Shown: positions 1-34,296 of the stretch, piece after piece
Layout of the letters: the number at the start of each line of letters is the position of its first letter
Position numbering within the stretch: position 1 is the first letter of the stretch
Assembly: GCA_963733675.1 (NCBI GenBank)
Contig: CAVTET010000001.1
Coordinates: forward strand, 1-64,000
Length of the DNA: 64,000 bases
Direction of reading: 5' to 3'
Source of the DNA: an uncultured Methanosarcinaceae archaeon
GTDB taxonomy: Archaea; Halobacteriota; Methanosarcinia; Methanosarcinales; Methanosarcinaceae
Program-made: the position numbers and the translations under genes
Notes under the pieces: generated by a model
The model's database searches: none
Told to the model about the DNA's origin: nothing
Seen by the model: only the letters and a program-made list of their open reading frames with translations

Positions 1-1005
1 ATTATTCATGTTACATCGCCTAACGCAGTATTATTCATGTTATATCTTATTATTCATGTTATATCTAATTATTCATGTTATATCTAATTATTCATGTTAT
101 ATCTAATTATTCATGTTATATCTAATTATTCATGTTATATCTAATTATTCATGTTATATCTAATTATTCATGTTATATCTTATTATTCATGTTATATCTA
201 ATTATTCATGTTATATCTAATTATTCATGTTATATCTAATTATTCATGTTATATCTTATTATTCATGTTATATCTAATTATTCATGTTATATCTAATTAT
301 TCATGTTATATCTAATTATTCATGTTATATCTAATTATTCATGTTATATCCCTAACTATATTCATGTTATATCTAATTATTCATGTATATCTTATTATTC
401 ATGTTATATCTAATTATTCATGTTATATCTAATTATTCATGTTACATCGCCTAATGCAGTATTATTCATGTTATATCTGAATTATTCATGTTATATCTAT
501 TATTCATGTTCATCTAATTATTCATGTTATATCTAATATTCATGTTATTCTAATTATTCATGTTATATCTAATTATTCATATTACATCCTTAATGCAATA
601 TTATTCATGTTACATCGTTAATATTAATATATGCATATATTATTCATGTATATCGCCTATCAATATTATTCATGTTATATCTAATTATTCATGTTATATC
701 GCCTAACGCAGTATTATTCATGTTATATCTTATTATTCATGTTATCAATTCATAATTATTACATGTTCACGTATTACATTAAATATTATTCAATGTTACA
801 TCGTTGTCATATGAAATATTATTCATGTTATATCTAATTATTCATGTTATATCTAATTATTCATATTACATCTTATTATTCATGTTACATCGCTTAATGC
901 AATATTATTCATGTTACATCTAAATTAATTCAATATGTTATATCTTATTATTCATGTTATATCTAATTATTCATGTATATCTAATTATTCATGTTACATC
1001 GTCTA
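1..1005. repeat. Tandem array A: 19-bp unit ATTATTCATGTTATATCTA, about 40 copies, with interspersed 29-bp variant ATTATTCATGTTACATCGCCTAACGCAGT
   Basis: Near-perfect 19-bp periodicity at 30-350, degenerating rightwards; 29-bp variant at 1, ~432, ~684, ~875. Confidence 0.95.
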
Positions 1006-1254
1006 TTATTTATTGCTACATAATCATATTACATGTTGCATCATGATCGTACAATATTATTGTACATTACATTTATATCATGTATTATTTTAATACATGA
1101 TGCATTACTACAATATATATTATTTACATACGAATAATGTAATATATTATTTACGTTGTATATTTCTAATAGTATTGTTCATATAATATTATTGTTATAC
1201 ATATTATTATATATACAAGACAAATGCAATATTATTCATATACTTATTTTTTAT

Positions 1255-2625
1255 AATAATGATCAGTGATTACTACAATTAATTAAAAAATAAACAAGAA
1301 AAATGCAATATTTATTTACGTTGATATTTCTTTAGACCATTTTTTTTAATAATATTATATAATTATTAAAAAAAACAAGAAAAGTGCAATATTTATTTAC
1401 GTTGATATTCTTTAACTAGTTATTACTATATATTAATTATTAAAAAAAAACAAGAAAAGTGCAATATTTATTTACGTTGATATTTCTTTAGACCTTATTT
1501 TATAATAATAATTATTAAAATTAATTAAAAAAAAACAAGAAAAGTGCAATATTTATTTATGTTGATGTTTCTTTAGACCAATGATTATTATAATTAATTA
1601 AAAAAAACAAGAAAAATGCAATATTTATTTATATTATATTTTTTAACTAATGATTATTGCAATTATTAAAAAAAACAAGAAAAATGCAATATTTATTTAC
1701 GTTGATGTTTCTTTATACCTTTTTTTTTAATATAATGATTACTAATATTAATTAAAAAAAAACAAGAAAAGTGCAATATTTATTTACGTTGATATTTCTT
1801 TATGTCTTTTTTTTAATAATTATTACTACAATTAATTAAAAAAACAAGAAAAATGCAATATTTATTTAGTTATAATGTTTTCTTTAATAATGATCATGAT
1901 TATTACAATTAATAAAAAACAAGAAAAATGCAATATTTATTTACGTTGATTTTCTTTAATGATCAGTGATTACTACAATTAATTAAAAAAAAACAAGAAA
2001 AATGCAATATTTATTTACGTTGATGTTTCTTTATACCTTTTTTTAATAATCAATGATTACTACAATTAATTAAAAAAAAACAAGAAAAATGCAATATTTA
2101 TTTACGTTGATATTTCTTTATACCTTTTTTTTTAATAATGATTAATGATTAATACTAATTAATAAAAAAACAAGAAAAATGCAATATTTATTTACGTTGA
2201 TATTTCTTTATGACCTTTTTTTTAATAATCAATGATTACTACAATTAATTAAAAAAAACAAGAAAAATGCAATATTTATTTACGTTGATATTTCTTTATA
2301 CCTTTTTTTTAATAATCAATGATTACTACAATTAATTAAAAAAAAACAAGAAAAATGCAATATTTATTTACGTTGGATATTTCTTTAGCCCTTTTTTTTA
2401 TAATAATCAGTGATTACTACAATTAATTAAAAAAAACAAGAAAAATGCAATATTTATTTACGTTGATATTTCTTTATACCTTTTTTTTAATAATGATAAG
2501 TGATTACTACAATTAATTAAAAAAACAAGAATTTTAATTACTGCAATATTTATTTATACCTTTTATTGTTAATTGAAAAACCTGCAATTAATTAAAAAAA
2601 CAAGAAATTAATTTAGTGCAATATT
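1255..2625. repeat. Tandem array B: ~70-90-bp unit with core CAAGAAAAATGCAATATTTATTTACGTTGATATTTCTTTA, ~15 full plus 2 partial copies
   Basis: Core starts at 1295, 1376, 1451, 1536, 1608, 1676, 1763, 1845, 1920, 1994, 2081, 2171, 2259, 2347, 2437 (partial at 2526, 2601). Confidence 0.95.
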
Positions 2626-2799
2626 TATTAATGTTGATTTCGGTATACCAGATTGAATTATTATAAAAATATTATAATAATAAAAGTGGAAACTCATAGA
2701 TATTCATGAATAATCCTAGTACTACCTATGATGATAATTTATTATATGAATAATATTGCATAGGCGACATACACGAACCAATAAATTTAATGTTGAATT

Positions 2800-3445
2800 A
2801 TTATTATATTATGTTAAAATTATTTTACGTTGAAATATTATTTGAAATTATTATTAGATTAGATTATTATTATTTTGAAATATATTATATTGGAATTAAA
2901 TGTTGAAATTATAATTATATTGGAATTATAATTTTAAATATTGTCATGTATTAAATCGATTAGTTGAAATTATTGCGTCAGAATTAATTGTTACGTTAGA
3001 ATTATTATTGTTATCTACACAGTGTAGGAATTAATATGAAATTATTGCATTAGAAATATTCCTATGATAATTATATATGTGTAGATGTTAAAATTATTGT
3101 TACATAAATCATAGCTGTAAATATATCATGTTTAAATTATTACATCAAAATTATTATGTTGAAATTATTACATTAGAATATATAATGTTTAAATTATTAC
3201 ATCAAAATTATTATGTTGATAATTAATTACATCAAAATTATTATTGTCTTTTTTATTGTATCCAAAAATCCTCGTTGTATGATAATGATATGAATTCATT
3301 ACACACTTTATAATAATAACATCTTATTATGTTGAAATTTTAATATATTGAAATTTTAATATCTTTATTAAATCGTGATATTTTATTGTGTTAGAATCGT
3401 GATATTTTATTGTGTTAGAATCGTGACATTATTTATTGTGTTGGG
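2800..3445. repeat. Degenerate low-complexity repeats (GTTGAAATTATTA motif; ~57-bp x2 at 3131-3244; 24-bp AATCGTGATATTTTATTGTGTTAG x~3 at 3371-3445)
   Basis: Direct repeats read from the sequence. Confidence 0.8.
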
Positions 3446-3789
3446 ATTTAGCATTTTTTTATTAATTTTAACATCTCGCTATGTTGAAATTATAATATCT
3501 CGTTTATGTTATATAATAATTATTTTATTTTTATACAATAATTTGCACTTTAAAATAATAAATAATTATATATATTATTATTTTATATGTATGCATAATA
3601 ATAATATTAGAAAATGTGTGCAATAAAAAATATTAATAACATGCGAATAACGAAAAATATCAACAATATATGAATAATATTTAGCGACAATAGAAAATGA
3701 GGAAACATGAGTGACAAACAGGACAATAACGAGAAATATTAGGTAATACATGTATGGTGACTTCGCTTTTTTAGTATATTAGTACGTGT

Positions 3790-5900
3790 CTAATAACTAA
3801 AGTAAAGTGAAATTATGGTAATAAATATCTTTGTAACAACTACCGGAGGATAAGCAAAGTGGAATGCTCTTGATAACATATAAATAATAACTAAAGCAAA
3901 GTCAATGTTAGTAATACATGTATAAGTAACTAAAGCAAAGTCAATATTAATTTATACATATATAATAGTAATACATTCACAACAAGTACTATTAATAATA
4001 CATGCACAGTGACATACAATAGTGGTACATTGTATAGTGAGATGTAATAGTAATACATTCACAACAAGTACTATTAATAATACATGCACAGTAACTAATA
4101 CAATAGTAAGTACATGTATAAGTGAGATGTAATAGTAATACATTCACAAACAACTACTTATAATAATAACGTATAATAAGTACTATTAGTAAATATATGT
4201 ATAATAAGATATATTAGATGAAGAATAACTAAAGCAAAGTCAATAATACACGCATAATAACTAAAGCAAAGTCAACATTAAATAATACATGTATAACAAC
4301 AAATACCAATAAATAATATGTATACAAACGAAAAATATTAGTGACAATAGAAACAACGAGAACTATCAGTAAATAAGATATAATGATACTAAAGCAAAGT
4401 CAATATTAATAATACGTGCGTAATAAAAATTAAAGATCAATGAGTACATTGTAGAATACCTATTAGCAAAATCAATATTAATAATTACGACATATATATT
4501 AATAATTACAATACCGTAAAGATAATTGCAACATTGAATAATACATGTGCAACATTAATATTAATAATACATATATAATAAAATAATGCGAAATTGTGGA
4601 ATAATTGATAATACTCGTAGTAATAATTCAAATTGTAGAATAATTGCAACATTGTGGAATAATTGACTAAAGCAAAGTGGAATAATTAATAATACATTGT
4701 AATGACTAATGCAAAATTGTAAATAATTAATACATAAAAAGCAAAATTATAATATTATATAAAATTATGATGCCGAATAACTAAAGCAAAGTCAATAATA
4801 GTAATACATGTACAATACTAAAGCAAAGTCAATATAATTACACCACGTATAACATTGTAGTTATCTAAAGCAAAGTCAATATAATTACATACTGTAACGT
4901 GTATTATAGAATATAATTACACTACATATAACATGTAATTACGAAATATAACTACAATATCACAAAATAATTGCACTACGTATAACATTGTAGTTATCTA
5001 AAGCAAAGTCAATATAATTACTACAAATTGTAGTTATCTAAAGCAAAGTCAATATAATTAATATAACATTGTAGTTATCTAAAGCAAAGTCAATATAATT
5101 ATAACATTATAAAATAATTATAATTTTGTAGAATAAGTACAAGAGTATGCATATCATGGCAATAATTGCAATATTGTGTACTAAAGAATAATTGTAATAT
5201 TATAGAATAATTGTAACATTATAGAATAATTGTAATATTATAGAATAATTGTAATATTATAGAATAATTATAATATTATAGAATAATTGCAATATTATAG
5301 AATAATTACACTTCGTATAACATTGTAGTTATAAAATAGAATTACGCTACGCATAACATTGTGGTCATGAAACATATAACATTGTGGTTATCTAAAGCAA
5401 AGTCAATAGAATTACACTGCGTATAACATTGTAGTTATAAAATGGAATTACACTGCGTATAACATCGTAAAAGAATTACACTACGTATAACATTGTAAAA
5501 GAATATGTATAACATTGTAAAAGAATACGTATAACATTGCAAAAGAATACGCATAACATTGTAAAAGAATTACACTACGTATAACATTGTAATTATCTAA
5601 AGCAAAGTCAATATAATAATACATAGTATAATAATTGAAGTAAAGCAATAGTTACAATACGTATAACATGTGATAATAACTAAAGCAAAGTCAATATTAA
5701 AATACATATACAATAACTAAAGCAAAGTCAAATAATAATAATACATGCGTAATAACTAAAGCAAAGTCAATATTAGTAATATAATCCATGTACAACAATA
5801 ACTAAAGCAAAGTCAATATTATAATACAATGTATAATAACTAAAGCAAAGTCAATATTAGTAATACATGTACAATAACTAAAGCAAAGTCAATATTAATC
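3790..5900. repeat. Array C: repeats with core CTAAAGCAAAGTCAA (19 exact copies by hand count) embedded in related AT-rich units
   Basis: Core at 3891, 3930, 4229, 4261, 4389, 4781, 4818, 4865, 4998, 5038, 5079, 5393, 5597, 5680, 5717, 5756, 5802, 5840, 5878; also an ~82-85-bp unit x2.5 at 3964-4160. Confidence 0.92.
5186..5307. repeat. Array D: 19-bp unit GAATAATTGTAATATTATA x6
   Basis: GAATAATT at 5186, 5205, 5224, 5243, 5262, 5281, 5300. Confidence 0.92.
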
Positions 5901-6204
5901 ATATGAATAATATTATGGTAACCGCGGATAATTATAAGCGGGATAACATACACAAGCAACGATTGCATAGATGATATGAAGTACACAGTGAATTTCTATA
6001 GACATGCATGTTGTTTGAATTAGAGTGCCAATATTACTATTATCGAAAGTATTATTACATGTATTGTTTATATCTATACATTTAATTTAACACATTAAAT
6101 ATACTATGTGATTATTTATCTCATAATTGTCTTGTAATATTGCAATTAATTATTTCCCAACATTATAATAAATTTACATATTAAAATATAAATCAACATT
6201 AATA

Positions 6205-6456
6205 CTATTTACTTATTGCACATTTGCGTAGTATACCCATCAACCAACATGTGTCTGATAAATTCAATCTAAACACATATAAAGCGTCATCAGCTTGTTT
6301 TTCTTGTTTTTCATATATCTTCTTCACAACAGTGTCCAGTATATTTATTCCATTTAGCTTTAATGTTGTCTCATCAATCTCTAATTTATTACCATTAATC
6401 TCGAATATCCGACTTGTTGTTGATACTGCATCTCCCATCGTCTGCTCAGTTTCCAT
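6205..6456 (-). CDS. Orphan hypothetical protein (83 aa)
   Basis: ATG-initiated ORF with protein-like, non-repetitive composition inside the otherwise repetitive block; no family recognised. Confidence 0.35.
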   Translation of the reverse strand: METEQTMGDAVSTTSRIFEINGNKLEIDETTLKLNGINILDTVVKKIYEKQEKQADDALYVFRLNLSDTCWLMGILRKCAISK

Positions 6457-6707
6457 TTATTAGTCTTTATATCACTTTTTATGCGACATACTGATTAAAT
6501 TTATCTTTATCTGTTACAACTATGTAATAGCACGCCAGAAACTAATTTGCAAATTGTGTGGTGGTAAACAAAATTACATCCCAATATTATTACACATTTT
6601 TAGTAAGTAATACTATATGGTAAATTACATATTTTTCATGATATTATATCTCTATCTACATCAACTTTAATGATAATTATCTCTGTTCTAATATTATTAC
6701 ATATTTT

Positions 6708-7429
6708 TCATGATATTATATGTTCATTATGAGAATTATACTCGGTTCCATTTTTGAAAAAAAGAGACAGGGATAAGAAGAGATCCGTTACTGCGAAGGA
6801 GACTTTTGCATTGTCATACACATGTAAACTTGTGTGTTTATATCCAATAAATTCTTCAATTTCATAACTATGCTCATTTTTTACTTTGAAGAAAACATTT
6901 GGGGTAACAATGATATAAACTGGGATCTTTTTACGAGCGATCTCCAGAAACATTTTAGGAAAGCTTGGTAGAAATATAGATGCAAACCCCCTAAAATAAG
7001 TAGAAGTCATGACGTTGTCCATAAATGACTTATGGGAATCGTAGATGTATTCATGTTCATTTTTTACGATCCTACACTCTTTAAGATCCTAATTCTATTT
7101 AATAATGTATCAGGAATTGCAGTTAGATCATGGTTTTTCCAAAAATCTTCATTAGATTCTATAGCTTTAAGAGTATCCAGAAAAGGCTTGTAATATGCAG
7201 CTGAAACTTTCCCTAGAGGGGTTAAACGATACATCCCATCCTGTCTGACAATCATATTTGCAGATTCCATCTCCTTAAGGCGTGGTAGAATTTCAGGTGA
7301 CCTTACGTCGAAATAATCTTTGATTTCTGAAAGAGTTTTTGGACTCTCCTCAAGCAGAAATAAAATATCTTTTCTTTTTTCAGAAAAGGTTAGAATGCTC
7401 AAAAGTCCGCCGCCTTTAATATTTATCAA
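6708..7429 (-). pseudogene. Methanosarcina winged-HTH transcription regulator (ArsR-like HTH + DUF1724-type domain), frameshifted and 3'-truncated
   Basis: ORFs 7064-7429 (FSEKRKDILFLLEESPKTLSEIKDYF) and 6708-7022 join as LNRI(Q)DLKECRIVKNEHEYIYDSHKSFMDN if 1 nt is restored near 7090; homology is lost after KNGTEY (~6740). Confidence 0.85.
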
Positions 7430-7556
7430 CCCACTATTTTTATCATTTTCCTACAGGTCATTGAAGTTTTATATCCGTATGTAGATTATCCGATCTTTAT
7501 TTACTTGGATAGCTTAAAGTTTGTTGCTATCTCCGTTTATTGTCTCATATTAATTC

Positions 7557-7704
7557 GACAGTTGTATCCTGGTAATATACCATTGTTATAATCAATATGA
7601 ATTCCATATATATTATCTTTTTTAAAAGTCAGACAGTTGTATTCTGATAATATAACATTATTATAATCAATATGGATTCCATATATATTATCTTTTTTAA
7701 GAGT
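7557..7704. repeat. 75-bp tandem duplication covering the likely BRE/TATA promoter of the HTH regulator
   Basis: GACAGTTGTAT...ATATATATTATCTTTTTTAA at 7557 and 7632; minus strand reads AAAAAAGATAATATATAT. Confidence 0.8.
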
Positions 7705-8460
7705 AAAGTAGTTTCGAATATCTTCAGCCTCGAAATAATTTGTATAAACTCAGAAAAATATCAAAAAATTATGTGATGTTATGAAATCATTAATTATGGA
7801 AAAGAAGAATAGAATCATTTTAGTAGAGTTATAACCAGTTTACTGTCCGAATCTTTTGAATCATACACTATCGTTAATATAATTACTTTACTTGATGAAG
7901 CAAACTATAGACATCAAGAAGTTCTTAATGTTTATTTCATGTTGTAGCATCTCCTACCAATTTTATTGAATCTGAAGTCAATGATCTAAGATCGAAAATA
8001 TTAGAGATAGGACACGCATTCAGAAAAAACCATCTCCAAACGTATGCAACCCAACTTGATTTAAAGCACCCTTTCTTCAATTATGGAAATGAAAGATGAA
8101 GCTTTGATCTTAAAGTTGTCATATTTTCTCTATATCGATCTAGAAAGATAATTTTATAATTATAATTATTTTTATGCTCAATGATAATGGAGATTTTATA
8201 AGTTAAATATTTTTTCTGCAGACAAATACTTTCCTGAAGTTCATTTTGAATTATATTTTTTTAAAAAAAATTCGTTCTGCTGTTCCAGTATTTATCGATT
8301 ATCTTAATTGCTTGATTCGCCTCCAGTGCAGGGAAAATATGAAGAAAATTGCAATTTATTGTTGTAAATACGGTAACAATCAATCATCAAGAATCTTTTT
8401 CGCTAACTCTCCCTGTCTTCAATAGATCCCCATAAATCTGTTCGAACAAAAGTAACTGAA

Positions 8461-9599
8461 ACTATAGAGAATTTCGATACCTTTTCTGTATTTTGAGCGT
8501 TAGAGAGTTTTAATTTCTTAGCAATGATTTTTACTTATAAAAACTTACTGATTTTGCTCTTAAAAAAGAGTACACACTTCTTCAGTAAGCTGGAGACAAA
8601 TTTGTGAAATTAATTCCTTAATAGATTGGAAAATCTTTTCGTATCATTTTTGAGTTCATATATTCTAAAAAAGAATCCTTCTGAGACAAATACGAAGCTG
8701 ATGGCATCATTCTGGTTAAAATACTTGTTTTACAGCAATTGTATGGTATTTAAGACTTCATTTGAGAAACAATTTATTGATTGAATTTCTTTCAGAAAAT
8801 TTTTTGGTTTTTCTGATAACATACCAGACAGTACCACAATCAGCCGTTCCGAAAAGAATTATTGATAACTGCAAAGAAGAATAAATATGGGTACGTTTGC
8901 AAAGACAGCTTGATTGCCTTGGTTTGAAAATGAAACATGGAACGATTTAGGAATCTACTGTTATCCATTCAGATTCAGAATGTCCAAAAGCAGATAAACC
9001 TCGAGAAAATGAAGCAAAAAAGGAGAAGCCTAGCTGGATTTTGGACGAAAGGTTGGTAAGCCATGCTTTAAATATATATTTCATAGCATAATAACCAGGG
9101 ATTATGAGCTAATCAAAGTTTCAAGGTAACAACTCCATCACTTTATGATTCGTATGTAGATTTCTCTGAAAAAAATGAAGTTGTTTGGGGGGCAGAGGAT
9201 ACCTTGGAGCAAAATCAAAAATTTATGATGCAACACTGGGAAAAAGTAAAAGAACGTCCTTTGAAAATGGGTGATATATTAAAAACAAGATACTAATTCA
9301 AAAGATTTAAGGGGAACGAGTTTATGCAGTAACTAAAAAGACATTCAGACATCTAAGTTCTTGTCACTACTTCAAGGAGTGAATCCAAATATATTGGGTA
9401 CAACTTTGTGTTATAATCTCTATGTTTGATGACATTGGAAACTAAAAGGAGTATTTTAAGGGTAATAGAAAGCTATCTTTAAAATCAAAGAATAATGAAC
9501 CAGAAAAGAAAAAATAGGAGTACATAAATTAGCGAGAAAGATTTTGATAGGATCTCCGTAAAGAAAAAAAATCAAAGATAACTCTGAATCCTCTATAGT
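8461..9599 (+). mobile_element. Degenerate IS5-family element (transposase pseudogene), copy 1
   Basis: Imperfect IR ACTATAGAGAATTT (8461) / GAATCCTCTATAGT (9586); fragmentary motifs KILVLQQ, ISFRKF, IPDSTT, RDYELI, GERVYAVTK with many stops and indels. Confidence 0.85.
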
Positions 9600-9943
9600 A
9601 TTTGTTTCCCTGTCGCCATAACCTGATTTAAAATTAATTTGAATTTATCTGGAAAAGTGTAAAGAAAGAAGTTTAAAATAATTCATAGAATCCGTTATAG
9701 ATTCAAATAATTGATTTGATGTAAATATACAGAGTTAGCTAACTTACAATCAATTACAAAGAATTGTATGAAAATATTTTATAGCAAATAAAAAGTGTAG
9801 TAAATTGTATATTTGACTATAATCAGAACTGAAACAGACTGCTTTTTACAAAAGGCAATAAGTAATGTTTTAAGCATTTTTAAATTGAGTTTCATTTAAG
9901 GAAATGCCGCGAAAGAAAAAAACGGAAACTCAGAAGCTGAAAG

Positions 9944-11599
9944 ATGGAACTTGAGATGAGAGAAGATAATTACATAAAGGCTTGCAGGGAAATTTTTGAA
10001 AAAGTACTCGCAGGCGAAATAGAAGACGAAACTCAGTTGAACAGAACAAAAAAAGAAGTCAGTAAGAATTATCATCTGGCCGCCCTGCCCGGGAACGGGG
10101 ACATCATAATGCAGGGTGCCCCAGAAGAGCAGACCACAATTAAGGAATTCCTTAAAAGGAAACCAGTGAGAACAATTTCCGGAGTGGCGGTAATTGCCGT
10201 AATGACATCTCCTGCTCCATGTCCACATGGGGTTTGTCTGCCTTGTCCCGGGGGTCCGAATTCCGTATTTAAATCTCCTCAAAGTTATATGGGTAGGGAA
10301 CCTGCAGCTATGAGAGCAATCCAGAATGAGTTCAATCCCTACTCTCAGGTTAGATCCCGGCTCTCCCAGCTCAAGGAGATCGGTCACGATATAGAGAAAG
10401 TAGAATTGATAGTTATGGGGGGCACATTTTCCTCCCGCAGTCTTGATTATCAGGAATGGTTTGTCAAAAAGTGCCTCGAGGCTATGAACGATTTCACTTC
10501 TGAGGAATGGAGAGAAAAAGTTTGGAAAATCGGGAAATCTTTACCCTATATCCCGCTCGAAGAGGTACAAAAAGCCAACGAAATAGCTGGGATACGTAAC
10601 ATAGGAATTACATTTGAAACTCGTCCGGACTGGACAGAAGCGAAACATGTGGACGAATTTCTGAGGCTTGGAGGAACAAAGGTAGAGCTTGGAGTTCAGA
10701 GTATTTATGATTTTGTGCTCACACGTATGCATAGAGGTCATAGCGTTGCTGAAATCGTAACGGCCAACCGAGTATTAAGAGACAGCGCATTAAAGGTTGG
10801 ATTCCATATGATGCCTCATCTACCTGGGTCGGATTCTAACTTAGACCTAAGATGTTTTAAAAAACTTTTTGAAGATTCTCGCTTCAGGCCTGATTATCTA
10901 AAGATTTATCCTACCCTTGTGACTGAAGGTACTCCTCTTTACAGGCTCTGGGAAGCAGGAGAGTATGAAGCTCTTTCGGATGAAGAGGCAGTAGAACTTG
11001 TTGCTGACATAAAGGCGATCCTGCCTAAATGGGTAAGACTCCAGCGGGTACAGCGCGATATTCCCTCCCACCAGATCTTTGCAGGAGTCCGGAAGAGCAA
11101 TCTCAGACAGCTTGCAAAAGAAATGCTTATAGAAAAAGGAGGAAAATGTCGCTGCATCCGCTGCAGAGAAGTAGGGCATAGCAGCTTGAAAGGGAACAAA
11201 GTAAACGAGAAAGATATCGAACTGACTGTGGAAACCTATAAAGCATGTGAAGGCACAGAGTATTTCATAGCATTTGAAGATCTTGCTATGGATATTCTGA
11301 TCGGGTTTATTCGCCTTCGTTTCCCGTCAATTCCTCACCGTCCAGAGTTGCAGGAAGCCGCTTTGATAAGAGAGTTGCATGTATATGGCTCCATGGTACC
11401 CATAGGAAGGGAAGCAAAGCAAACGGATTGGCAGCATCGAGGATATGGAAAGGAACTTCTGGAACATGCAGAAAAAATAGTGCATGAAGCTGGTTACCGA
11501 AAACTTGTTGTTCTCAGTGGAATAGGAGCCAGAGAATATTATCGAAAATTTGGATATGTTCTTGATAACTTGTATATGTCTAAAATTTTGAAAAATTAG
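9944..11599 (+). CDS. elp3: tRNA wobble-uridine modification radical SAM/GNAT enzyme Elp3
   Basis: RTISGVAVIAVMTSPAPCPHGVCLPCPGGP, ETRPD, DYLKIYPTLV, RELHVYG, QHRGYG motifs; start may be 9956. Confidence 0.96.
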   Translation: MELEMREDNYIKACREIFEKVLAGEIEDETQLNRTKKEVSKNYHLAALPGNGDIIMQGAPEEQTTIKEFLKRKPVRTISGVAVIAVMTSPAPCPHGVCLPCPGGPNSVFKSPQSYMGREPAAMRAIQNEFNPYSQVRSRLSQLKEIGHDIEKVELIVMGGTFSSRSLDYQEWFVKKCLEAMNDFTSEEWREKVWKIGKSLPYIPLEEVQKANEIAGIRNIGITFETRPDWTEAKHVDEFLRLGGTKVELGVQSIYDFVLTRMHRGHSVAEIVTANRVLRDSALKVGFHMMPHLPGSDSNLDLRCFKKLFEDSRFRPDYLKIYPTLVTEGTPLYRLWEAGEYEALSDEEAVELVADIKAILPKWVRLQRVQRDIPSHQIFAGVRKSNLRQLAKEMLIEKGGKCRCIRCREVGHSSLKGNKVNEKDIELTVETYKACEGTEYFIAFEDLAMDILIGFIRLRFPSIPHRPELQEAALIRELHVYGSMVPIGREAKQTDWQHRGYGKELLEHAEKIVHEAGYRKLVVLSGIGAREYYRKFGYVLDNLYMSKILKN

Positions 11600-12520
11600 A
11601 TGTTTTAATATTTTATGGGATCCCTAGATTTCTCCTCAGAAAGAGTCACGCAATGGAAATCAATATGCGTGTGAGATAATATATTCACTCCTTCATTTAA
11701 ACTATATTTTAATTTATTTCATATGTTTAATTTTATAAAACTCATAATTTGGTATTTTTCCAGGACAACACTCCTAGATAGATTTATTGTATAGCTATCG
11801 TTTTATCAGTTACTAGTTGGTTTATTAATCCTACAGAATGTTGCACATAACTTGGTGCAAAATTTAAATCACATTAATAGTGATTATAGTTAATTAATAT
11901 ACAAAATATTTTTATATTTATATATTAATTATATTCTTTTTGTTACTTAAGTTATGTTTCGATCTTGTCATTGATACATTGTTTTTTGTGACAAAATCTA
12001 TGTATTTTTTTCATTTTTCAGCCGAAATAATCGGCAAATATAGGCTAAAAACTCATATACACATAGATTTTATTTTAAATTATTCATTATTAAGAAATAC
12101 GACAAAGCCTACAATAATCTAAATATTGGAAAAATGGAGTAATTTTTATACAGTAAATGTACAAACTTGTAGCATATGCAAGAAAAAAGAAAAAGATTAG
12201 TGCTTAAGTAAATATTCCCTTAGTAGATGGTTTACAGCAACATGGATACCATAATCTGACTAAGGCTGTTATCACAGGCTTTGAAATGATCATCGCTAGT
12301 ATCTATCAATTCAATTATGGGTCACTTCAATGAGATCTAAATACTTTTATTCTGACGGGAAGTTACTTAAGTAGTATGTCCAATAATTAAAAATGTATAG
12401 AGCATTGTGGTTACAGGCGCTGCAAAGGAAGTGAACTATGTAGCAGTAGCGAATTTTTGATCTATTCGTATATTCTCTTTTTCCTGAGTCACCTATTTTC
12501 CAGTAGAGTCTTTAAGGATT

Positions 12521-32802: not shown

Positions 32803-34296
32803 TCAATTCGGGGGCTCTCCTCTTTTCATCCTCTTCAAATACTTGTTCAATACCACTTCCGCAATAAGGGTAATCCCGTTAAGAGCTACACGGACGCCAG
32901 GTCCTGTGGTCATCCTCTCACTATAAAACCGGTGCAGAGCCTTCAGATGCCGAAGGTTGTACTCCAAGCAAAGTCCCACCAGCTCCCAGTGCTCAGGAAA
33001 AGCCTGATCCTTTCCAAAGCCGGTCGTGCCGCCAAGCCTCGTTTCAGCTATGGGGCTGAAGAATAGCGGCATCATCAAGCCGGTGTAATCCTTCAGCGAC
33101 TCCACGAGTTCAATGGTCTGCAGCACGTCCTCGACAGTCTCGCCAGGGAGGCCAAGCACAAGGCTGGCGACAGGAAGCCAGGACTCTTCTCCGAAAAGCC
33201 GATAACAATCTCTGACTATCTCGGGCCAGCTCTCTGGGTTTTTCGGCAAAGTTTTTCTTGGCATATGCATTTGAAGAATTCTGCAGCTTCCGGTCTCTAT
33301 CCCTATCCAGGCAGACATGTACCTCTGATCTCTGCCAACTCCTGCGATCCTGGACACTTCCCGAAGGAGGTCCTGATTTTGATGAATCGTGGCGAGGCTG
33401 AGATGGGATACATCCACCGTCCTCGGACCCAGCCGCTTAACCCCTCTGAACAGTTTCTTGACCTTTTCTCCATCGGGCTTGGTGCCTGGTGAGCCGTAGG
33501 TGAAGATGTCTTGGGAATGAAGAACCACGTCTCTTTGACCTGCCTTTAGATTCACCGTTACGTCATCGAGGATTCTATCCAAGGGTCTGTGACGGAGAGT
33601 GTGCATGGTCGGAGAGCAGAAGGAACACCCCCGCCAACAACCCCTGCCGACTTCCACGATCCCGGCAATGGTTGGGCCCCTGTTCACAGGTATGTCCCCT
33701 CCTGCCACAGCCGTTCCTCGAATTACCTTTGGAACCTCATCGCCGTTAATAATAGATCGGCAGATTCTAGGAAAATCGTCCTCTCCCTCGCCCAGGTAAA
33801 TATGGTCCACTGGGACATCCTCGCCCACCAGCTCCCAGGCTCCCATACCGCCGACTACCAGCCTTGGCATATGCTCTTTGATCAGTGGATGGTTTATCAG
33901 GGCCAGGAACTTGGACCTGTTATGAGGCTCACCCCGCCCGATCATCTCCTCGATCTCGCGTAAGGCGATTTTTCCGAGGGGATCATCGTGGGTTATTCCC
34001 ACGATCTCAGTTTCTGGGCCGATGGCCTTATCAAGGTGATCTGGATGGGCCACCATCACCTCGGACCGATCAAAACCGGCCTCTAAGAGGGCTGCCTCCA
34101 CTTTTCTCATGCCGCAGGGCGCGAGCAGGGCTGAGCCGTCCGAGGCTGCAGCCACGGGAGGGCAGAAGAGCAGCCGGAAGGCTAAATCTGGCATCACAGA
34201 CTTTGGCAGCGTCGCTGCAAACCCAAGAATCGCTCCCCCGTGATATGTGCTCATCATGGTGAGATCGCTTGTCAGAACGATTTTTTTGCCCTGTAT
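32803..34296 (-). CDS. B12-binding/radical SAM domain protein (GC-rich, likely foreign)
   Basis: APCGMRKVEAALL, VEVGRGCWRGCSFC (CxxxCxxC), GIETGS, LVLGLPGET; conserved KIVLTSD lies upstream of the first ATG, with ATA at 34296. Confidence 0.88.
   Translation of the reverse strand: MQGKKIVLTSDLTMMSTYHGGAILGFAATLPKSVMPDLAFRLLFCPPVAAASDGSALLAPCGMRKVEAALLEAGFDRSEVMVAHPDHLDKAIGPETEIVGITHDDPLGKIALREIEEMIGRGEPHNRSKFLALINHPLIKEHMPRLVVGGMGAWELVGEDVPVDHIYLGEGEDDFPRICRSIINGDEVPKVIRGTAVAGGDIPVNRGPTIAGIVEVGRGCWRGCSFCSPTMHTLRHRPLDRILDDVTVNLKAGQRDVVLHSQDIFTYGSPGTKPDGEKVKKLFRGVKRLGPRTVDVSHLSLATIHQNQDLLREVSRIAGVGRDQRYMSAWIGIETGSCRILQMHMPRKTLPKNPESWPEIVRDCYRLFGEESWLPVASLVLGLPGETVEDVLQTIELVESLKDYTGLMMPLFFSPIAETRLGGTTGFGKDQAFPEHWELVGLCLEYNLRHLKALHRFYSERMTTGPGVRVALNGITLIAEVVLNKYLKRMKRGEPPN

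What the first reader, a model, noticed from the sequence alone, without database searches (positions are those of the whole stretch)
1..6740. 6.7-kb layered satellite/telomere-like block fused to the edge of an archaeal chromosome segment
Seen: a nearly non-coding, extremely AT-rich block of successive tandem-repeat families (19-bp A, ~88-bp B, degenerate zone, C, 19-bp D). The outermost array is most regular near position 1. The block is attached inside a chromosomal gene. Established: Methanosarcina chromosomes are described as circular and I know no such arrays in them. Inference: if real, this could be a healed linear end extended by repeat-adding synthesis, or a repeat-rich extrachromosomal element joined to the chromosome. 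The alternative is at least as likely: a single-read contig tail (nanopore base-caller drift into AT-rich repeats) or an amplification chimera. No polymerase, RT or protelomerase gene is in the window.
Basis: partly seen in the sequence, partly recalled or inferred. Interest (0 to 1): 0.8.

Follow-up and report, generated by a model that had tools for sequence, protein, structure and literature searches.

The report
AT-rich repeat tail, probably assembly chimera
The 6.7-kb block of AT-rich tandem repeats is really in the sequence, but it most likely got attached to this Methanosarcina-type chromosome by an assembly error at a contig tip, so it is probably not a telomere or any new feature of archaeal chromosomes.

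Summary
The repeats are real: five or more tandem families at 15-24% GC fill window 1-5915, followed by 0.8 kb of unique AT-rich DNA up to 6743. Position 1 is the start of contig C1 in a 15-contig, 92%-complete assembly.

At 6743/6744 homology to a conserved FilR1-like regulator gene stops dead. Its last ~108 nt are missing. In 18 of 18 relatives a UbiA-like gene follows within 863 bp. That gene occurs in 56 of 58 other genus genomes but is absent from this assembly.

Two other contig ends carry foreign tails of similar size. C15 has 6.3 kb at 61% GC with bacterial rpoD, nrdR and an ECF sigma. C12 has about 4.5 kb, mostly at about 69% GC.

The block's motifs occur nowhere else in the genome, the genus or the public collections searched.

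Best reading (0.62): a chimeric contig tip holding real DNA of unknown source. Rival (0.22): a genuine insertion or native satellite domain. A telomere is unlikely (0.03): no inverted copy, no hairpin, no end-maintenance gene. Base-caller noise is rejected.

The parts
1..1000 (+). Array A: 19-nt unit ATTATTCATGTTATATCTA (about 46 units), interspersed with 24-43-nt variants such as ATTATTCATGTTACATCGCCTAACGCAG. The contig starts inside it.
   Evidence: Sixteen consecutive clean units at 29-332. The 19-mer occurs 22 times exactly on the + strand and never on the - strand.
1001..1290 (+). Degenerate A-like transition zone
   Evidence: it shares 13-14 10-mers with the proximal bins of array A.
1291..2640 (+). 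Array B: unit of about 87 nt, with 15 copies of the core AACAAGAAAAATGCAATATTTATTTACGTTGAT and higher-order periods of 178 and 266 nt. GC about 15%.
2641..3890 (+). Mixed zone of small arrays (14-, 24- and 57-nt units). AT skew flips from T-rich to A-rich near 3500.
3891..5915 (+). C/D zone: 19 exact copies of CTAAAGCAAAGTCAA in variable flanks. It also holds nested arrays of 82 nt x2.5, 40 nt x3, 19 nt x6.5, 22 nt x5.6 and 38 nt x7.5.
5916..6743 (.). Non-repetitive AT-rich end of the block, with orphan ORF 6205-6456 (-). It carries three oriented ATTATTACA motifs that tie it to the arrays.
   Evidence: 3 motifs here against 0.034 per kb in native low-GC DNA; no homologue of the ORF; no other copy of this stretch in the genome.
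6743..6744 (.). Junction: all homology to the genus stops here.
   Evidence: the alignments of the 18 sampled relatives begin at window 6724-6748, in 16 of them at 6744-6745; nucleotide alignment to the G006 orthologue.
6708..7429 (-). FilR1-like HTH regulator. Homologous part 6744-7429. It lacks about 108 nt of its 3' end and has one 1-nt deletion, which splits it into ORFs 7064-7429 and 6708-7022.
   Evidence: HVO_A0261_N/HTH_5 and FilR1_middle (E 1.1e-22)..
9944..11599 (+). elp3 (context): intact, and 75-82% identical in DNA to all 18 genus relatives sampled.

Best explanation
Window 1-6743 is real, reasonably accurate DNA sequence made of AT-rich satellite arrays. Its attachment to this chromosome is most likely an artefact: a chimeric tip at the end of contig C1 in a metagenome assembly.

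Inferred mechanism: a read, or a small group of reads, joined a Methanosarcina-type fragment ending inside the regulator gene to an unrelated AT-rich fragment from the same DNA pool. Because nothing overlapped the foreign part, the assembler extended into it and stopped. That is why the contig ends there.

The true chromosome should continue left of 6744 with the last ~108 nt of the regulator and then the conserved UbiA-like gene.

The source of the tail is unknown. It could be a satellite-rich organism of the soil community or an unassembled element.

Shown: the anatomy, the breakpoint, the missing neighbour gene, and the foreign tails on two other contigs. Inferred: the read-level cause, and that the assembly comes from long reads (judged only from the 1.16-Mb contig).
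For: 1. The block sits at a contig end.

2. Homology to the genus stops at one nucleotide inside a gene that is otherwise intact. Differences from the G006 orthologue fall 35/29/89 on codon positions 1/2/3 (241 sites each). There is no internal stop and a single 1-nt deletion.

3. In 18 of 18 relatives sampled, a UbiA-like gene lies 214-863 bp beyond the regulator's 3' end (positions). That gene is in 56 of 58 other genus genomes and in all 38 other high-quality ones. It is absent from this assembly, as is the regulator's 3' end.

4. The same assembly has two other foreign tails, making 3 of 30 contig ends aberrant.
- C15, last ~6.3 kb at GC 0.61. GC jumps from 0.27 to 0.66 within 100 bp. It encodes Sigma70 r1.2, r2 and r3 in different frames, NrdR and an ECF sigma.
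- C12, last ~4.5 kb: about 0.6 kb at GC 0.45-0.56, then about 4 kb at GC ~0.69, with a DDE transposase and an integrase.
- Sigma70_r2 is in 4 of 59 genus genomes and in none assembled into 1-2 contigs.

5. The block is unique.
- Motifs occur only here in the genome.
- There are no exact matches in metagenome contigs, genome contigs or viral contigs for the A and B motifs.
- blastn against plasmids and phages found nothing.
- Only weak chance-level hits to unrelated short arrays appeared in 12 of 58 genus genomes.

6. It is ten times longer than the longest native AT-rich non-coding array, which is 576 bp.

7. Six of 7 array segments lack the host's 6-mer signature, against 2 of 14 native AT-rich arrays.

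8. Chimeric reads are reported as 1.70-8.17% of nanopore data sets (PMC10025935, passage read).
Against: - No read-level evidence. Read laying could not be used, so single-read support is inferred, not seen.
- Methanosarcina is the most satellite-rich prokaryote genus described (PMC6749651). This genome has 14 or more native AT-rich arrays, so a native origin is not exotic.
- The compositional change at 6743 is gradual (0.25 to 0.29 to 0.32), unlike the jump on C15.
- Segment 6401-6743, on the block side of the junction, scores host-like in the k-mer test.
- Tandem arrays are themselves a common cause of contig breaks.
- The C12 tail has unbroken ORFs (571-aa transposase). It is therefore not obviously a single noisy read, and the three tails may not share one cause.
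- No adapter remnant was found at any of the three junctions (the motif was recalled from memory).
Confidence: 0.62

Rival explanations
1. Genuine DNA of this archaeon: a satellite-rich segment of at least 6.7 kb (a native satellite domain or a recently inserted repeat-rich element) interrupts the regulator/UbiA-like gene pair. The contig broke because the assembler could not get through the 19-nt array. The regulator's 3' end and the UbiA-like gene lie beyond the array, in the unassembled 8%.
For: - Methanosarcina genomes carry 35-406 satellites each, mostly AT-rich with units under 30 nt (PMC6749651, passages read).
- This genome has native AT-rich arrays up to 576 bp.
- Relatives have small arrays of 14-37-nt units.
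- The GC transition at the junction is gradual.
- Segment 6401-6743 has a host-like k-mer signature.
- The frameshift plus the truncation could be two lesions of one dead gene.
- The region to the right (7430-9900) is a gene-free stretch holding a dispersed repeat.
Against: - No related array anywhere else in the genome or in 58 genus genomes.
- Ten times longer than any native AT-rich array.
- Six of 7 array segments lack the host signature.
- The cut gene shows purifying selection up to the break, so the event would have to be very recent.
- The far side of the supposed insertion is not on any of the 29 other contig ends.
- The assembly demonstrably makes foreign tails of this size.
Confidence: 0.22
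2. Iteron-type replication or partition region of an extrachromosomal element or provirus of the archaeon. The invariant cores would be arrays of binding sites for an initiator or segregation protein. The join to the chromosome would be either real (integration) or a chimera.
For: - Three families have sharply conserved cores in variable flanks, all in one orientation. There are 19 exact copies of a 15-mer, 15 copies of a 33-nt core, and about 46 copies of a 13-17-nt core.
- Unit sizes of 19-22 nt are typical of iterons (recalled knowledge).
Against: - No initiator, Rep, Par or integrase gene, and no credible gene at all, in 6.7 kb.
- The Cdc6 genes of the genome lie elsewhere, and the region beside the best one shares no motif with the block.
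- No match among plasmids, phages or viral contigs.
- The copy numbers are far above those of known iteron origins.
Confidence: 0.06
3. Telomere-like end of a linear replicon: a healed chromosome end extended by repeat addition.
For: The block is at a contig end. Array A is most homogeneous near that end. Linear archaeal elements rich in tandem repeats exist: the Borgs (PMC9879509).
Against: - No copy of any motif in inverted orientation on any of the 15 contigs.
- No terminal inverted repeat or palindrome.
- The first unit is a long variant, not the pure repeat.
- No RVT_1 or ResT/TelK domain in the assembly.
- A core gene that should lie beyond the break is missing, not relocated.
- Contig ends are not molecule ends, and two others here are plain chimeras.
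Confidence: 0.03
4. Base-caller noise: a low-quality long read drifting into invented AT-rich repeats.
For: The block is AT-rich, repetitive and at a contig tip. The C15 tail shows frameshift errors, which suggests thin coverage at tips.
Against: - 87-nt units at 84-92% identity, with 178- and 266-nt higher-order periods.
- Seventeen of 21 copies of a 16-mer are exact, and two more differ only at the last base.
- Sixteen consecutive 19-mers have no indel.
- Several unrelated families follow one another in an ordered way.
Confidence: 0.03

Closest known systems
Chimeric reads and dead-end tips in long-read metagenome assemblies
   Same: The block is at a contig end. It is a few kb long and has foreign composition. 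It begins abruptly inside a conserved gene, and the native continuation is missing. Two sister cases exist in the same assembly. Chimeric reads are reported as 1.70-8.17% of nanopore data (PMC10025935, passage read).
   Different: The partner here is not recognisable bacterial DNA but gene-free satellite DNA, so its foreign origin cannot be shown from gene content. The sequencing platform and read support are unknown to me.
Short non-coding satellites of Methanosarcina (Subirana and Messeguer 2019, PMC6749651)
   Same: AT-rich, non-coding, with units mostly under 30 nt. This genome and its relatives carry many such arrays.
   Different: Those arrays are short. Only 28 of 2635 archaeal satellites exceed 1.5 kb (paper, passage read), and the longest AT-rich one here is 576 bp. 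The block is a 5.9-kb cluster of five or more families found nowhere else.
Tandem repeats and inverted-repeat termini of Borg elements (PMC9879509)
   Same: Archaeal context within Methanosarcinales, low GC, many tandem direct repeats, and repeats that tend to end contigs (passages read).
   Different: Borg repeats are perfect, scattered among and inside genes, and A-enriched. Borg ends are long inverted repeats. Here the arrays are imperfect (76-95% matches), packed into a gene-free block, and no inverted partner exists.
Iteron arrays of plasmid origins and origin-recognition-box clusters of archaeal origins
   Same: Direct repeats of 15-22 nt with an invariant core, all in one orientation.
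   Different: There are tens of copies over 6 kb rather than a handful over a few hundred bp. No initiator gene lies beside them.
Eukaryotic satellite or subtelomeric arrays
   Same: Several families in succession, higher-order periodicity, a homogeneous core with degenerate edges, and about 20% GC.
   Different: No eukaryotic gene, telomere repeat or database match ties the block to a eukaryote. The collections searched hardly cover eukaryotes.

Membership tests
Chimeric contig tip (assembly artefact) | Lies at a contig end | tested here: met
   The window is C1:1-64000.
Chimeric contig tip (assembly artefact) | Homology or synteny ends abruptly, cutting otherwise intact native sequence | tested here: met
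   The alignments of the 18 relatives begin at window 6724-6748, in 16 of them at 6744-6745. The gene shows a 35/29/89 codon-position bias and lacks its last ~108 nt.
Chimeric contig tip (assembly artefact) | The expected native continuation is missing from the assembly | tested here: met
   The UbiA-like neighbour is adjacent in 18 of 18 relatives and present in 56 of 58 other genus genomes. It is absent here. The regulator's 3' end is absent too.
Chimeric contig tip (assembly artefact) | The same artefact is seen elsewhere in the assembly | tested here: met
   C15 has a 6.3-kb bacterial tail and C12 a ~4.5-kb tail, mostly at about 69% GC.
Chimeric contig tip (assembly artefact) | Supported by one or very few reads, with a drop in depth at the junction | not testable with these tools
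Telomere / end of a linear replicon | The same terminal sequence in inverted orientation at the other end | tested here: not met
   No reverse-strand copy of any of 6 motifs in 15 contigs. The assembly is only 92% complete.
Telomere / end of a linear replicon | Terminal hairpin or palindrome | tested here: not met
   No inverted 10-mers within or between the first bins.
Telomere / end of a linear replicon | End-maintenance enzyme (reverse transcriptase, protelomerase, protein-primed polymerase) | tested here: not met
   RVT_1 and ResT-TelK_cat: 0 matches in the assembly. DNA_pol_B_2: 0 matches, but the control was silent, so that test is inconclusive.
Telomere / end of a linear replicon | Physical end of the molecule | not testable with these tools
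   This needs reads that all stop at one place, or Bal31/PFGE.
Native Methanosarcina satellites | AT-rich non-coding tandem arrays with short units | tested here: met
   PMC6749651 (passages).
Native Methanosarcina satellites | Short arrays scattered through the genome | tested here: not met
   This is a 5.9-kb cluster. The longest native AT-rich array is 576 bp, and the median tandem region is 50 bp.
Native Methanosarcina satellites | Oligonucleotide signature of the host | tested here: inconclusive
   Six of 7 array segments are negative at k=6, against 2 of 14 native arrays. Segment 6401-6743 is host-like.
Borg-type tandem repeats | Perfect units, scattered in genes and between genes | tested here: not met
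   76-95% matches, and one gene-free block.
Iteron-type origin | Initiator (Rep or Orc1/Cdc6) gene beside the repeats | tested here: not met
   No gene in 1-6743. The Cdc6 genes lie on C4, C7, C13 and C15.

The most novel reading that the evidence does not exclude
The block is genuinely the archaeon's own DNA: the terminal, telomere-like satellite domain of a linear replicon. A weaker version would be a eukaryote-style multi-family satellite domain of more than 6.7 kb inside an archaeal chromosome, with the invariant 15-33-nt cores acting as protein-binding sites. The evidence here does not exclude it, because no reads could be examined and the assembly is incomplete.
Probability: 0.04. Interest if true: 0.9.

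Novelty: not a real feature. Interest (0 to 1): 0.15.

Why it matters
If it were real, a telomere-like end or a 6-kb satellite domain would be a first for an archaeal chromosome. That is why it had to be checked.

The check points the other way, and the useful outcome is practical. This assembly carries at least two, and probably three, foreign tips of 4.5-6.7 kb, so contig ends of such metagenome genomes should not be read as biology without read support.

The test used here can be applied to other suspicious tips. A conserved gene pair is cut at the junction, and the partner gene is missing from the assembly.

Tried and rejected
**Read evidence.** The look-up of sequencing runs listed 20 soil, peat and permafrost runs holding 0.06-0.28 of the sampled words of window 1-9000. 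None could be laid. These shares therefore say nothing either way.

**Public collections.** These searches found no match:
- exact motifs in metagenome contigs and genome contigs;
- the A and B motifs in viral contigs;
- blastn against plasmids and phages.

An 18-mer gave 7 single-copy viral hits, which I take as chance.

**Genus blastn of the block.** Weak hits in 12 of 58 genomes. On inspection they are unrelated short AT-rich arrays.

**Replication origin.** No Cdc6 gene is near the block, and no motif is shared with the region beside the best Cdc6 gene.

**RNA genes.** No Rfam family and no tRNA in 1-12000.

**ORF 6205-6456.** No homologue among 5.8 billion proteins, and none that is real in the genus.

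**Large-scale inverted symmetry of the block.** Only a few shared 10-mers.

**Adapter remnants at the three junctions.** Scores of 16-18, against a genome-wide 99th percentile of 20 (the motif was recalled from memory, so the test is weak).

**Avoidance of 4-nt palindromes as a host signature.** The host avoids none strongly (O/E 0.82-1.13), so the test is uninformative.

**Runs of A/T as a handle for finding similar blocks in relatives.** Not specific.

**Multi-copy mobile element.** The unique parts of the block have no other copy in the genome.


Full report
**What is there**

The window is the first 64 kb of contig C1 in a 15-contig, 3.92-Mb assembly that is 92% complete with 2.7% contamination. 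The organism is of the Methanosarcina type. Its McrA best matches PDB chains 1e6y_A and 8gf5_A, which I recall as the M. barkeri and M. acetivorans enzymes. M. acetivorans rings in the tool's control genomes for Cdc6_C and MCR_alpha.

Positions 1-5915 are a gene-free chain of tandem-repeat families at 15-24% GC. The genome average is 35.7%.

- Array A (1-1000): about 46 units of ATTATTCATGTTATATCTA. Sixteen consecutive units (29-332) differ only at one A/T position. Further in, 24-43-nt variants interrupt it. The very first unit of the contig (1-28) is one such long variant, and it recurs at 431 and 683.
- Array B (1291-2640): 15 units of about 87 nt with a conserved 33-nt core and higher-order periods of 178 and 266 nt.
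- A mixed zone (2641-3890).
- The C/D zone (3891-5915): the 15-mer CTAAAGCAAAGTCAA stands 19 times unchanged in variable flanks. Nested arrays of 82, 40, 19, 22 and 38 nt lie among these copies.

All families are direct repeats on one strand, and there is no large inverted symmetry.

Positions 5916-6743 are non-repetitive AT-rich DNA with one orphan ORF. Three oriented ATTATTACA motifs tie this stretch to the arrays, against 0.034 per kb in native low-GC DNA.

**The junction**

At 6744 a FilR1-like regulator begins, on the minus strand. It has an HTH domain and a FilR1_middle domain (E 1.1e-22).

The blastn alignments of the 18 genus relatives sampled begin at window 6724-6748, in 16 of them at 6744-6745. 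The G006 orthologue is 264 aa. Ours follows it up to '...FFKNGT' and then diverges, so about 108 nt of the 3' end are missing.

Upstream of the break the gene looks selected. Differences from G006 fall 35/29/89 on codon positions 1/2/3, with 241 sites each. There is no internal stop and a single 1-nt deletion. The missing 3' end is nowhere else in the assembly.

**What should be there**

In 18 of 18 relatives a UbiA-like gene lies 214-863 bp beyond the regulator's 3' end (positions). This gene occurs in 56 of 58 other genus genomes, and in all 38 other genomes that are at least 90% complete. It is absent from this assembly by tblastn and by the genome search.

The native chromosome therefore almost certainly continues left of 6744 with the regulator's end and this gene. 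The AT-rich block stands in their place.

**The assembly makes foreign tips**

Of 30 contig ends, three have aberrant composition: C1 5', C12 3' and C15 3'.

- C15: GC jumps from 0.27 to 0.66 within 100 bp, 6.3 kb from the end. The tail encodes Sigma70 regions 1.2, 2 and 3 in different frames, NrdR and an ECF sigma. Sigma70_r2 rings in 10 of the 14 control genomes, all ten of them bacteria. It is found in 4 of 59 genus genomes and in none assembled into 1-2 contigs. Both of this genome's matches are on that tail.
- C12: the last ~4.5 kb starts with about 0.6 kb at GC 0.45-0.56 and continues with about 4 kb at about 69% GC. It carries a DDE transposase and an integrase, and it begins right after the start codon of a homocysteine-biosynthesis gene.

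So tails of 4.5 and 6.3 kb are clearly foreign. The C1 tail, at 6.7 kb, is in the same size class.

**Uniqueness of the block**

- Its motifs occur only here in the genome and never on the reverse strand. Only (AAT)n is shared with the rest of the genome.
- No exact match in metagenome contigs, genome contigs (21, 44) or viral contigs for the A and B motifs (45, 71). There is no blastn match among plasmids or phages (52, 53).
- blastn of the block against 58 genus genomes gave weak hits in 12. All are to unrelated small arrays.

**For a native origin**

Methanosarcina is described as the most satellite-rich prokaryote group. It has 35-406 satellites per genome, mostly with units under 30 nt. 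Only 28 of 2635 archaeal satellites exceed 1.5 kb (PMC6749651, passages read).

This genome has 500 tandem regions with a median length of 50 bp. The long ones have periods divisible by three and are presumably coding. The longest AT-rich non-coding array is 576 bp.

In a Markov test against dinucleotide shuffles, 12 of 14 native AT-rich arrays score host-like at k=6. Only 1 of 7 array segments of the block does. Segment 6401-6743, however, scores host-like. Short units make this test noisy, so I count it as moderate evidence only.

**Weighing the readings**

Base-caller noise is excluded by the internal order of the arrays.

A telomere has nothing in its favour beyond the contig end. There is no inverted partner and no terminal palindrome. 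There is no RT or protelomerase in the assembly. The protein-primed polymerase search was uninformative. A core gene is missing beyond the break, not relocated.

The choice is between a chimeric tip and a genuine, very recent insertion whose far side is unassembled. I favour the chimera (0.62) for three reasons:

- the assembly demonstrably produces such tips;
- the cut gene is otherwise intact;
- the block is alien to the genome and the genus in sequence and mostly in signature.

The 1-nt deletion in the regulator and the broken rpoD on C15 would both fit thin coverage at tips, but that is inference.

The genuine-insertion or native-satellite reading keeps 0.22. The reasons are that reads could not be examined, that the genus is prone to satellites, and that the compositional change at 6743 is gradual.

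**Earlier scan note**

Note e1-4296294, on another part of this genome, described dispersed MITE-like repeats in gene-free islands. This agrees with the ~1.1-kb dispersed repeat I saw at 8466-9600. It does not bear on the block itself.

Noticed in passing
L047:5700-12000 (own contig C15, last ~6.3 kb): Bacterial DNA at 61% GC joined to a 27% GC archaeal intergenic region. It carries rpoD pieces in different frames, nrdR and an ECF sigma. GC jumps within 100 bp. This is a plain chimeric contig end.
   Followed up: yes
L046:5450-10000 (own contig C12, last ~4.5 kb): Foreign tail: about 0.6 kb at GC 0.45-0.56, then about 4 kb at about 69% GC. It has an intact 571-aa DDE transposase and a phage-type integrase. 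It starts directly upstream of a homocysteine-biosynthesis gene. Probably a second chimeric or misjoined end.
   Followed up: partly
window 8466-9600: Dispersed non-coding repeat of about 1.1 kb, with 8 further copies at 73-78% identity on C1, C3, C4 and C5. Copies also occur in two relatives. It matches the MITE-like repeats noted earlier in this genome.
   Followed up: partly
window 7557-7704: A 75-nt unit repeated twice (91% matches, 21% GC) just upstream of the regulator. It is an ordinary small native satellite.
   Followed up: no
window 32803-34257: A radical-SAM gene (484 aa) lies in a 1-kb stretch at 55% GC, far above the genome's 36%. It may be a horizontally acquired gene.
   Followed up: partly
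own contigs C5 5', C6 5', C9 3' and C9/C10 5' ends: The 5' ends of C5 and C6 nearly match each other, and the last bases of C9 match the first bases of C5. The 5' ends of C9 and C10 also resemble each other. These contig breaks probably lie in copies of dispersed repeats, an ordinary cause of contig ends, unlike the three foreign tails.
   Followed up: no
G045, G062, G009: Three other fragmented genomes of the genus also carry Sigma70_r2 matches. This points to bacterial contamination or chimeras in those assemblies too.
   Followed up: no
L024:1492-1682 (G034, a two-contig relative): A 37-nt unit x5.2 (98% matches) that contains TTATTCATGTAC. It is the closest look-alike of array A in the genus, but only a 190-bp array.
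   Followed up: partly
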